Made by a program: the position numbers and the translations under genes. From Phycisphaerales bacterium (GTDB lineage Bacteria > Planctomycetota > Phycisphaerae > UBA1845): a stretch of DNA of 64,000 nucleotides. Within the stretch, counting starts at the first letter, position 1. Every line of letters starts with the position of its first letter. The notes under the pieces were generated by a model. The model was not told the DNA's origin. It saw nothing but the letters and a program-made list of their open reading frames with translations, and searched no databases. Shown one piece after another: positions 1-2,374 of the stretch. The stretch is from assembly GCA_020344555.1 (NCBI GenBank), contig CP070827.1, positions 4,191,419 to 4,255,418 on the forward strand, in the 5' to 3' direction.

Positions 1-2374
1 GTCCGGCGAATCCGCCGTACATGCGTACGCCCTCCTTGAGCAGGAAAGTGGCCTCACGGTCACCGGGCACTACGATTCCTCCGGTGTCCAAGTCGGGTTT
101 GTACGTGCCGCCGGCTACAAGGATCCTGCTGCCGTCGGTCGCCGCCGCGAGCGCATCCTGCAGGTAGTCGAACGCGCTACTCCAAGTCAAACCGTCACCG
201 CCCTCAGGGGCATCATCGTCCACGTGGAGAAAAGAAGACCAGATAGTGAAGTCATCATCGCTCTCGTCAACTTCAGTTCCGTTGTCAAAGCGGATGCGGT
301 AGTCGGTGCCCTTTGGCAGGCTCATCGGGATGCTCCAGCGGAACGTTCCCGTGTTGGGCACATCTGCCGCCAGTGTGCCGAGGGCACTGCCCCCCTTGAG
401 AAGGTATATGTCCACCGTGTTCGGCGGATCACACTCAAACACGGACCACAGGAGCGTATGGCTAGTTCCCAGGAACCAATGCTCCCCACCATTTGGCGTG
501 AGGGCAGAAAGGCCGGACGCCGCCGTCAAAGCCCGGTAGACGTTCAGGCGCGTCCCGGAGACGGTTATGCCGTCCAGAGCAGCGACGGGGTCGCCGCTGA
601 GTATGAGCCTGTTTCTCAGCTCGGTCAGGCACATGTCAGGACGGTCGGCCAGCAACAAAGCGGCAGCGCCGACAACGTGCGGTGCGGCCATGGATGTGCC
701 GTTCTTGAAGCCGTACACGGTGTCGACCGTGTAGTCCGTGCCGCTTTGCTTGAGCTGAATGTTGTCGACTTCCGCACCGAGGGAATCGTTGGAATCCCCA
801 TCCGTCTGCCAGCCATAGCGCAACTGCATTGAAGGGTTGCGATAGGGCTCCAAGTCGGAAACGACATTCGACCATGGGCCTCCGTTACACTCACTCGCGG
901 AACGACGCGCAAGCTCCAGCCAGCCAGTCCCGTCCCAGATCTCCACAATCAGAGCGTCGTCAGCGTCCTCAATCTCACAGTGACGCTGGTAATTAAGCAC
1001 CAGAGCTCGCTGACCGGTTGTGTCAATGGGTGGCGATACGATCCATCCATCAGCGTTGGGGCGGTAGGGGTTGGATTGCTCCGCGTCGCCGCGGGCGACG
1101 ATCTGACCCTCACCGATGTCAACCGTTCCCCAGTAGTTCACCGGCCCCTCGAGGGTGAACTGGCCACCGATGTCCGGCGGCGTTGCGGCCTGGAAATCCT
1201 CTAGAAATAGCGTCGCAAAAGCCGGTAAGGTACTGAGGACGTCCACCCCGGGGGCGCCCAGATCGACCGATGTGGCACCCCAATTGGAGAACTCGGCAAG
1301 GGCATCAGTGTGGTCCGTGGCGGCGACGGCGATCACGTTCTCCACGTTGTAGCCTGCCGGATAATATGGTGTCACGTCAGTGTCTCGAGAGTCGTTCCCC
1401 GCGGAGGCTACGAACAGAACTCCCGCATCACGCGCGGCGAGGAGTGCACCGGCCATCGCTGAATGGTAGAGGCTGCCTCCGGCGCTGTAGTTCATCACGC
1501 GGGCCCCGTTGTCGATTGCGTAGTATATCGACTCGACCGAGTGGGCGGTTAATCCTCACCCACCCGCGGAGAAGACTCGGAGGGCCATGACCTTGGCAGT
1601 CCAACTGACGCCGACCACTCCGATGGCGTTGTCTCCCACGGCGGCAATCGTACCCGCTACGTGCGTACCATGCCCACTGCCATCTGAAGGATCCGGATCA
1701 TCGTAACGAACGTCATACCCGTGCACATCGTCAACATAGCCGTTGAAATCGTTGTCTACGCCGTCGGTCTCCTTCCCGTCTCCGCTCTCGCCGGGATTGA
1801 CCCACATATTGGCCGCCAGATCCGGATGGTCGTAGTTTACTCCCGAATCTACAACCGCCACGATGACGGCTTCCGAACCGGTCGTAATATCCCAGGCCTC
1901 CGGGGCGTCGATATCGGCATCAGGCAGTCCGCCGGTTTGCCCCATGTTGTGCAAGCCCCAGAGCGCGCTGAAGTCCGGATCATTTGGATACGTCTCATCG
2001 AGGCACACGATGCAATCCGGCTCGGCATAACGGACTCCAGGCATCGCGGAAATCTGCTGTGCTAGAGCCACGACATCTGTTCCGGAGACCAGCTCGGCGA
2101 TGTGAATCTGGTGCGGTCCGTCCTTGGTTGGGTCAGCGGAACGAAAACGTGATGTTGGCAGGAGTGTGCGAAGGCGCTTGACATTGGGAAGTGATTGTCG
2201 CGCCTGTGCCGCTGCCTCCTGGGGCATTGGCTCGAAGCGTACGATGATACGGTCCGGCACGAAACCAGCCGGTTCGATAACGACAGGGTTCGGTGCGACC
2301 TCCGCAGCGGTCCCGGTTGCCGTGAATACAACAACCACTGGTGCGAGTTTCAGCGTCACCCTGTGCATCTTCAT
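1..2374 (-). CDS. Secreted S8 (subtilisin-like) peptidase fused to a beta-helix surface-protein body, paralog A. The 3' part runs off the window start. One in-frame TGA at 1556-1558.
   Basis: ORF 1556..2374 encodes a signal peptide, an I9-like propeptide and the S8 Asp (VAVVDSGV) and His (HGTHVAGT) boxes. I checked every triplet of the same frame from 1555 to 2 (518 codons) and found no stop. That stretch encodes IYYAIDNGARVMNYSAGG, SAGND, GTSMAAPHVVG and YGGFAG, as in 2648..7444. Confidence 0.8.
1556..1558 (-). other. In-frame UGA inside the S8 domain of paralog A (candidate recoding or readthrough site)
   Basis: Reading is ..MALRVFSAGG-TGA-GLTAHSVESIYYAIDNGARV.. It is 10 codons after MALR and 5 before SVES, exactly as at 6626-6628. 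Confidence 0.6.

What the first reader, a model, noticed from the sequence alone, without database searches (positions are those of the whole stretch)
1490..1590. Paralog A carries an in-frame UGA at the same S8-domain codon as paralog B
The TGA at 1556-1558 interrupts ..MALRVFSAGG*GLTAHSVESIYYAIDNGARV.. I checked all 518 downstream triplets to the window edge and none is a stop. That stretch still encodes the oxyanion Asn box, the catalytic Ser box GTSMAAPHVVG and the beta-helix start. The flanks of the TGA differ from paralog B (GCGGGTGGG-TGA-GGATTAACC versus CCTGGTAGG-TGA-ACTCGGGTC). The shared stop is therefore not a recent gene-conversion patch. A small hairpin ACUC-GGUC-GAGU (1531-1542) starts 17 nt after the UGA. 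Its spacing and G/U-containing loop loosely fit the bacterial SECIS model, but the stem is only 4 bp and lies on the conserved SVES codons.
Basis: partly seen in the sequence, partly recalled or inferred. Interest (0 to 1): 0.75.

Follow-up and report, generated by a model that had tools for sequence, protein, structure and literature searches.

The report
Selenocysteine-containing secreted subtilisin-like proteases
The apparent stop codon in this sediment bacterium's secreted protease gene most likely encodes selenocysteine in the substrate groove, facing a cysteine of the enzyme's own inhibitory propeptide, which would be an unlisted kind of selenoprotein and possibly a redox-released safety catch.

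Summary
The UGA at 1556-1558 is real and almost certainly recoded. Six S8 subtilase genes of this Phycisphaerae genome, and seven more in six relatives (three genera), carry TGA at this site. Downstream dN/dS is 0.22-0.40, TGA is otherwise an ordinary stop, and selA, selB, selC and selD are present. The codon aligns with subtilisin Ser101, the S3 subsite. New here: 12 of 13 TGA genes have a Cys at P3 of their own propeptide, which by published register faces residue 101; only 1 of 238 TGA-free homologs does. No homolog examined has Cys at 101, and the TGA genes fall into two groups whose union is rejected (AU p=0.00025). Best reading: selenocysteine forming a Se-S bond to the propeptide, probably a redox-released latch on the zymogen. 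Weak points: paralog A's own hairpin is marginal (4 bp, not its lowest-energy fold), independent contrasts are few, one TGA gene lacks the Cys, and there are no protein or RNA data. No S8 family is in the 119-family table of a 2026 review; a trypsin-like protease selenoprotein was predicted in 2008.

The parts
1..2374 (-). Gene A: secreted S8 subtilase (signal peptide, prodomain, S8 domain with an insert, Ig-like domain, start of a beta-helix-like region; Cys-rich repeats follow beyond the window edge)
   Evidence: the beta-helix and repeat labels are from inspection, not from a family hit
2303..2374 (-). Probable signal peptide (about residues 1-24)
   Evidence: read from the sequence (basic start, hydrophobic stretch, Ala-Ala end); no predictor run
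1997..2275 (-). Prodomain of A (fervidolysin-type), ending at the inferred P1 Asp126
   Evidence: PF22148 at residues 34-120; mature start from structure alignments
2003..2005 (-). Cys124, propeptide P3: proposed partner of the selenocysteine
   Evidence: P9 Glu, P7 Asp, P4 Val register from PMC4024747
2012..2014 (-). Cys121, propeptide P6 (CxxC with the P3 Cys); possible resolving thiol
   Evidence: role is inference
1847..1849 (-). Catalytic Asp176
1670..1672 (-). Catalytic His235
1556..1558 (-). In-frame UGA, codon 273, equivalent to subtilisin Ser101 (S3 subsite); inferred selenocysteine
1531..1542 (-). SECIS-like hairpin, 4-bp stem in A, GGUC loop at +18; 5-8 bp in the six closest sister genes
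1394..1396 (-). Oxyanion-hole Asn327, downstream of the UGA
719..1219 (-). About 165-residue insert within the S8 domain (function not tested)
   Evidence: S8 profile matches in two pieces
692..694 (-). Catalytic Ser561, downstream of the UGA
2648..7444 (-). Gene B: complete paralog, 1598 residues when read through
6626..6628 (-). In-frame UGA of gene B, same codon 273
6600..6613 (-). SECIS-like hairpin of B, 5-bp stem, GGUC loop at +18
7073..7075 (-). Propeptide P3 Cys of gene B

Best explanation
The UGA is read as selenocysteine by the SelA/B/C/D system, guided by a short G-loop hairpin, giving a full-length secreted subtilase. SHOWN: conserved TGA, purifying selection past it, Sec machinery, position equal to Ser101, co-occurring propeptide P3 Cys. 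INFERRED (about 0.88): Sec is inserted. INFERRED (about 0.7): after export the Sec forms a selenenyl-sulfide with the P3 Cys of the propeptide tail, which lies across from it in the substrate groove. INFERRED (about 0.45): this bond tethers the inhibitory propeptide after self-cleavage, so activity needs a thiol or reductant, possibly helped by a third nearby Cys; that is a redox-released latch. The confidence given is for Sec plus the Se-S pairing.
For: Six paralogs in G000 and seven genes in six relatives share the TGA. dN/dS past it is 0.22-0.40 in all 21 pairs of the 7 genes tested. tRNA-Sec, selA, selB and selD score over their cut-offs in G000; selA is in all 7 TGA genomes. TGA is otherwise a normal stop; RF2 is in 5 of 5 relatives tested. 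The site aligns with Ser101 of subtilisin BPN', an S3 residue. Propeptide P2-P6 pairs antiparallel with this strand in PfSUB1, which by simple register puts P3 opposite 101. P3 Cys is in 12 of 13 TGA genes and 1 of 238 TGA-free loci. Among database proteins, 11 of the 13 with P3 Cys (4 are G000's own) and the single one of 236 domains end just before the site. A hairpin rule met by 5 of 5 canonical-type selenoprotein genes of G000 is met by 11 of 13 TGA genes, 41 of 225 TGA-free homologs and 101 of 628 real TGA stops. One gene with a six-codon insertion has a new 7-bp hairpin at +22 (L013).
Against: A itself fails the hairpin rule (-2.1 kcal/mol), and its lowest-energy fold is a different one, no better than shuffles (z -0.33; B 0.16; canonical FdhA-like and AhpD-like -2.6 and -3.6). 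The rule was set after seeing the data. Pair covariation is not beyond shuffles (86 of 500; one compensatory change) and is nil in the second group. No Cys homolog at the site (0 of 238 loci; none in 236 and 246 protein domains), so the usual Sec/Cys test fails. Only 2 independent contrasts on well-supported branches; the sign test cannot reach significance. Exceptions: L255 has TGA without P3 Cys and fails the rule; L075 has P3 Cys with Ser; P0173 has P3 Cys and runs past the site; P0182 ends at the site without Cys, stop codon unchecked. selA is in 96 of 101 family genomes, so co-occurrence does not discriminate. No expression or protein data.
Confidence: 0.68

Rival explanations
1. Sec is inserted, but its job is on substrates: after the propeptide leaves, a selenolate at the S3 subsite reduces or traps disulfide- or Cys-bearing substrates. 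The P3 Cys only protects selenium during export.
For: Residue 101 contacts the substrate's P3 side chain, and changes there alter activity. The catalytic triad is intact. L255 keeps TGA without the P3 Cys.
Against: Nothing here shows reductase chemistry; no thioredoxin-like partner gene was seen beside A or B (other loci not surveyed).
Confidence: 0.2
2. The Se-S bond is permanent or only a folding aid: it fixes the propeptide, giving an inactive, binding or scaffold protein that keeps its prodomain.
For: Same covariation; long accessory domains could carry the function.
Against: Catalytic Asp, His, Asn and Ser are kept, with dN/dS 0.13-0.38 in the segment holding the Ser; 9 of the 12 genes have a third Cys close by that could resolve the bond.
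Confidence: 0.12
3. The UGA is read through, but mostly as Cys, Trp or another near-cognate residue by leaky termination, or it serves as a selenium-dependent switch between a short propeptide-bearing product and the full enzyme.
For: Weak hairpins, especially in A; no Cys homologs; prfB not found in G000 itself, which is 71% complete.
Against: Always TGA, never TAG or TAA, at this site in 13 genes; the only UCA-anticodon tRNA among 34 found is tRNA-Sec; the codons forming the hairpin core are frozen in 7 of 7 genes; relatives have RF2.
Confidence: 0.08
4. True stop: shared pseudogene lesion, or a split gene with restart downstream.
For: Gene callers split these genes; an in-frame start codon lies 10-20 codons downstream in 11 of 11 genes checked.
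Against: Purifying selection on both sides at dS 0.4-1.3; the stop is kept in three genera and two separate groups; a restart would drop a conserved helix and has no signal peptide; no reason for a P3 Cys to track a dead gene.
Confidence: 0.03

Closest known systems
S8A subtilases, closest solved: deseasin MCP-01 (PDB 3vv3), thermitase, subtilisin BPN'
   Same: Fold and catalytic residues; model of paralog L058 vs 3vv3 Z 54.8, rmsd 1.1 A over 319 residues, 52% identity; prodomain with P9 Glu.
   Different: Ser or Thr at position 101 there, UGA here; no P3 Cys in 237 of 238 TGA-free loci (8 of them gapped at that column).
Bacterial selenoproteins made by SelA/B/C/D with a SECIS just after the UGA
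   Same: In-frame UGA, machinery present, G-loop hairpin at the spacing seen in this genome's FdhA-like, AhpD-like and AhpC-like genes.
   Different: Not a listed family (Table 1 of PMC13188914); no Cys homolog at the site; shorter stems; the partner Cys is 149 residues away on a piece that is cut off.
Predicted trypsin-like serine protease selenoprotein from ocean reads (PMC2398784)
   Same: A serine protease with a predicted Sec.
   Different: Different fold (trypsin family); its Sec replaces a conserved Cys with 128 Cys homologs; 9 sequences; listed in a 2022 review but not in the 2026 table.
Plasmodium SUB1, redox-switch subtilisin (PMC4024747)
   Same: A subtilase controlled by a labile bond near the active site; P1 Asp propeptide.
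   Different: A Cys-Cys bond within the catalytic domain, needed oxidised for activity; here Se-S between domain and propeptide, proposed to inhibit until reduced.
Selenosubtilisin (PDB 1sel, 1ubn)
   Same: Selenium in a subtilisin scaffold (listed).
   Different: Man-made conversion of the catalytic Ser (recalled); here the catalytic Ser is kept and the Sec is genetically encoded at another position.

Membership tests
S8A subtilase | Asp/His/Ser triad in that order plus oxyanion Asn | tested here: met
S8A subtilase | Subtilisin fold | tested here: met
   model of paralog L058 with Cys standing for Sec, pLDDT 95.2
S8A subtilase | N-terminal inhibitory prodomain whose tail binds the groove | tested here: inconclusive
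   PF22148 hit and P9/P7/P4 residues fit, but model residues 1-74 did not superpose on solved pro-forms and no coordinates were returned
S8A subtilase | Proteolytic activity and self-processing | not testable with these tools
   needs protein
Bacterial selenoprotein | In-frame UGA conserved in several genes, homology and selection continuing past it | tested here: met
Bacterial selenoprotein | selA, selB, selC, selD in the genome | tested here: met
   selA in 7 of 7 TGA genomes; tRNA-Sec found in 3 of the 6 TGA relatives (first look limited to 150 candidates)
Bacterial selenoprotein | SECIS hairpin after the UGA | tested here: inconclusive
   11 of 13 pass a home-made rule, A fails; energy and covariation not significant; no Rfam match; bSECISearch not available
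Bacterial selenoprotein | Cys-containing homologs at the same position (usual discovery test; some families lack them) | tested here: not met
   0 of 238 loci, 0 of 236 and 0 of 246 protein domains; these are top hits, not the whole family
Bacterial selenoprotein | Selenium in the protein | not testable with these tools
   needs labelling or mass spectrometry
Reassigned-TGA genetic code (tables 4, 25) | TGA not used as stop genome-wide; RF2 lost | tested here: not met
   frame stays open after 40 of 504 TGA, 36 of 400 TAG, 22 of 210 TAA ends; RF2 in 5 of 5 relatives, not found in incomplete G000
Redox-switch subtilisin (SUB1 type) | Labile bond near the active site whose state sets activity | not testable with these tools
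   position and covariation only; SUB1's own Cys pair was not looked for here

The most novel reading that the evidence does not exclude
A lineage of sediment Phycisphaerae has twice turned the S3-subsite serine of secreted subtilases directly into selenocysteine (TCA to TGA is one base; 14 TGA-free homologs have TCA there) with no cysteine stage, each time with its own SECIS hairpin and a matching Cys in the propeptide, creating a selenium-sulfur latch that keeps the protease off until it meets reducing conditions.
Probability: 0.33. Interest if true: 0.92.

Novelty: new variant of a known kind. Interest (0 to 1): 0.78.

Why it matters
Known prokaryotic selenoproteins are mostly redox enzymes found through Cys homologs. 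A secreted hydrolase with Sec outside its catalytic triad and no Cys homolog at that site would be missed by those searches, and gene callers now cut these genes at about 272 residues. If the Se-S pair is real, it is a natural covalent link between a subtilase and its own propeptide, a directly testable way of controlling zymogen activation by redox state and selenium supply, and a case for testing whether Sec can arise from Ser. It also suggests a search strategy: conserved UGA plus a covarying distant Cys.

Tried and rejected
Sequencing error: rejected. Genome-wide TGA reassignment: rejected. Pseudogene and split gene: rejected. Rfam gave no match at 1300-1800. NCBIfam gave no model over cut-off and none naming a selenoprotein. 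The AlphaFold model returns no coordinates, and its prodomain did not superpose on solved pro-forms, so it does not test the Cys-Sec distance. Complex prediction was not run, because the mature chain cannot be read under table 11. No RNA holder listed; this is no evidence on expression. Searching relatives with the AhpD-like gene to build a lineage SECIS consensus found only G000. The careful tree did not finish; quick trees were used, on 83 of the 251 loci, with distant S8 genes and all metagenome loci left out. 'Not in print' rests on searches and on the texts named in the full report. PMC12013261 and PMC9879109 were not held. Supplements were closed: the family lists of BSepDB (Table S2) and deep-Sep (Tables S1, S2) were not seen and could bear on novelty.

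Full report
OBSERVATION. The window is G000:C1:4191419-4255418 of a 5.25-Mb, 71%-complete genome with 799 N-gaps. Two same-genus loci match records titled Planctomycetota and Phycisphaerae bacterium, and the best sequencing run is a sediment metagenome. Gene A starts at 2374 on the minus strand. Its codon 273 (1556-1558) is TGA and the following 518 codons in the window are open. Gene B (7444-2648) has TGA at the same codon 273 and reads on to 1598 residues. The catalytic Asp and His lie before the TGA; the oxyanion Asn and catalytic Ser lie after it.

NOT AN ERROR OR A DEAD GENE. Six of 31 S8 matches in the genome hold one TGA, all in one alignment column. Across 101 genomes of the family, 13 of 76 matches hold a TGA, in 7 genomes of 3 genera. 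Eleven are at the identical column; two (L013, L255) sit one residue earlier, before a short insertion. A contig of another sample spans the codon unchanged. For the 7 genes of A's group, dN/dS is 0.11-0.30 upstream and 0.22-0.40 downstream over 21 pairs; A-B gives 0.21 and 0.28. Downstream is somewhat higher, but far from 1. TGA is a normal stop in this genome. RF2 is present in 5 of 5 relatives tested and was not found in incomplete G000.

MACHINERY AND SECIS. tRNA-Sec (65.9 bits, cut-off 47), selA, selB and selD are present. selA is in 96 of 101 family genomes, including all 7 with TGA genes, so it is permissive evidence only. Five genes of known selenoprotein types in G000 (one FdhA-like, three AhpD/CMD-like, one AhpC-like) have 7-8-bp hairpins with a G-containing loop starting at +18 to +25. 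A's group has a hairpin with a GGUC loop at +18; the second group has a different 5-bp hairpin with its loop at +22. A rule fitted after seeing these is met by 11 of 13 TGA genes, 41 of 225 TGA-free homologs and 101 of 628 true TGA stops. The Ser-Val-Glu codons of the core are identical in 7 of 7 genes although only 38 of 196 invariant-residue columns keep one codon; the two other such three-codon runs include Trp or Met. One pair shows a compensatory and a wobble change, but this is not beyond shuffles (86 of 500), and the second group does not vary. L013, whose insertion pushes the old hairpin away, has a new 7-bp hairpin at +22. Against: A has the weakest stem, fails the rule, and folds preferentially another way, no better than shuffles; L255 also fails. 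A G-containing loop such as GGU is described as the expected SECIS in 10.1101/2022.07.06.499078 (passages), and 12.6% of catalogued bacterial selenoprotein genes lack a canonical SECIS (PMC13326102, passages).

WHERE THE RESIDUE SITS. The codon aligns with Ser101 in Gly100-Ser101-Gly102 of subtilisin BPN' (counted from His64). Ser101 is an S3-site residue (PMC9312984 and PMC1890553, passages). In PfSUB1 the propeptide tail P2-P6 pairs antiparallel with the equivalent strand, with a conserved Glu at P9, Asp at P7 and Val at P4 (PMC4024747, passages and section 6). A's tail fits that register exactly and puts Cys124 at P3 and Cys121 at P6. The mature start agrees: model residue 75 of paralog L058 aligns with residue 1 of deseasin MCP-01 and thermitase, making its Cys72 P3. 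That P3 faces residue 101 follows from this register (inference; that it is the non-hydrogen-bonded site is recalled). Cross-strand disulfides are described as metastable, redox-switch bonds (PMC4354306, passages). The model itself did not test the distance.

COVARIATION. Among 251 S8 loci read at DNA level, P3 is Cys in 12 of 13 TGA genes and in 1 of 238 others (229 other residues, 8 gaps); none has Cys at 101. In 236 domains from 150 cluster representatives the only P3 Cys is in a 272-residue protein ending just before the site. In 246 further domains 13 have P3 Cys: 11 end just before the site (4 are G000's own genes), one is a fragment ending earlier, and one cyanobacterial fragment runs past it. 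One protein ends at the site without the Cys; these stop codons could not be checked. Nine of the 12 Cys-plus-TGA genes have a third Cys at P6 or four residues before the UGA. These counts are of kin: there are only 2 independent contrasts on starred branches, and the sign test cannot reach significance. On an 83-row tree with the TGA codon and the P3 Cys masked, the TGA genes form at least two groups, and holding them together is rejected (AU p=0.00025, quick tree, LG+G4). Two origins, one old origin with many losses, and conversion between paralogs are not separated. Ser is the commonest residue at 101 and TCA occurs there in 14 homologs, so a one-base Ser-to-Sec route exists; most known selenoproteins come from Cys ancestors (PMC1794560, passages).

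MECHANISM. Most likely Sec is inserted (0.88), perhaps inefficiently in A; the protein is exported; Sec273 and the propeptide Cys124 form a selenenyl-sulfide across the groove (0.7); and this holds the cleaved propeptide in place until reduced (0.45). Rivals: Sec acts on substrates, the bond is permanent, readthrough uses another residue, or the stop is real. All steps beyond sequence are inference.

COMPARISON. It is an S8A subtilase by sequence and fold. It works like a SelB-dependent bacterial selenoprotein, but the Cys-homolog test is not met and the SECIS test is inconclusive, so 'selenoprotein' is a strong prediction, not a filing. Table 1 of PMC13188914 (119 families; section 7, parts 1-2 of 3 read) has no S8 family, and its text has no 'peptidase', 'protease' or 'subtil'; the same words are absent from the main texts of PMC13326102 and PMC12013277. 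A trypsin-like protease and a 'MucD' selenoprotein were predicted in 2008 (PMC2398784, passages; the former listed in PMC9312934, passage), so protease selenoproteins are not without precedent. Deseasin papers were seen as a search listing only. Supplements were not seen.

VERDICT. Real, recoded, and probably an unlisted selenoprotein family confined, in what was searched, to one Phycisphaerae family, with a specific and testable structural partner. New variant of a known kind; interest 0.78.

Noticed in passing
window about 7790-10100, minus strand: A broken gene of the same cassette type upstream of B: beta-helix-like region, Cys/Asp repeats and the shared C-terminal domain, no S8 domain seen, with a frameshift near 8400 and a TGA at about 8004 that replaces a Trp seen in B. 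It looks like a true pseudogene and contrasts with the clean A and B frames.
   Followed up: partly
G000:C1 2843732(-), 1350671(-), 380767-380916(-), 5166985(+), 1463469-1463891(-): Five genes of known selenoprotein types (FdhA-like, three AhpD/CMD-like, AhpC-like) with strong SECIS-like hairpins.
   Followed up: yes
L255 (G070:C1:3798576-3799433): TGA-bearing S8 gene without the propeptide Cys but with a Cys four residues before the catalytic His; it may use another partner or be decaying.
   Followed up: partly
L013 (G005:C297): A six-codon insertion right after the UGA comes with a new 7-bp hairpin at the usual spacing.
   Followed up: yes
G000:C1 1263537(+), 4578670(+): Further TGA readthrough candidates with high coding scores on both sides and a downstream hairpin; fetched as L279 and L277 but not analysed.
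   Followed up: no
window about 15800-55500: Ribosomal protein, rpoA, secY and EF-Tu cluster with tRNA-Trp and tRNA-Thr; ordinary (names from inspection).
   Followed up: no
protein databases (P0070, P0152-P0162): Gene callers record these genes as 265-283-residue fragments ending at the UGA.
   Followed up: partly
G100:C353 and G082:C45: selA matches in two family genomes contain one TGA each; not examined.
   Followed up: no
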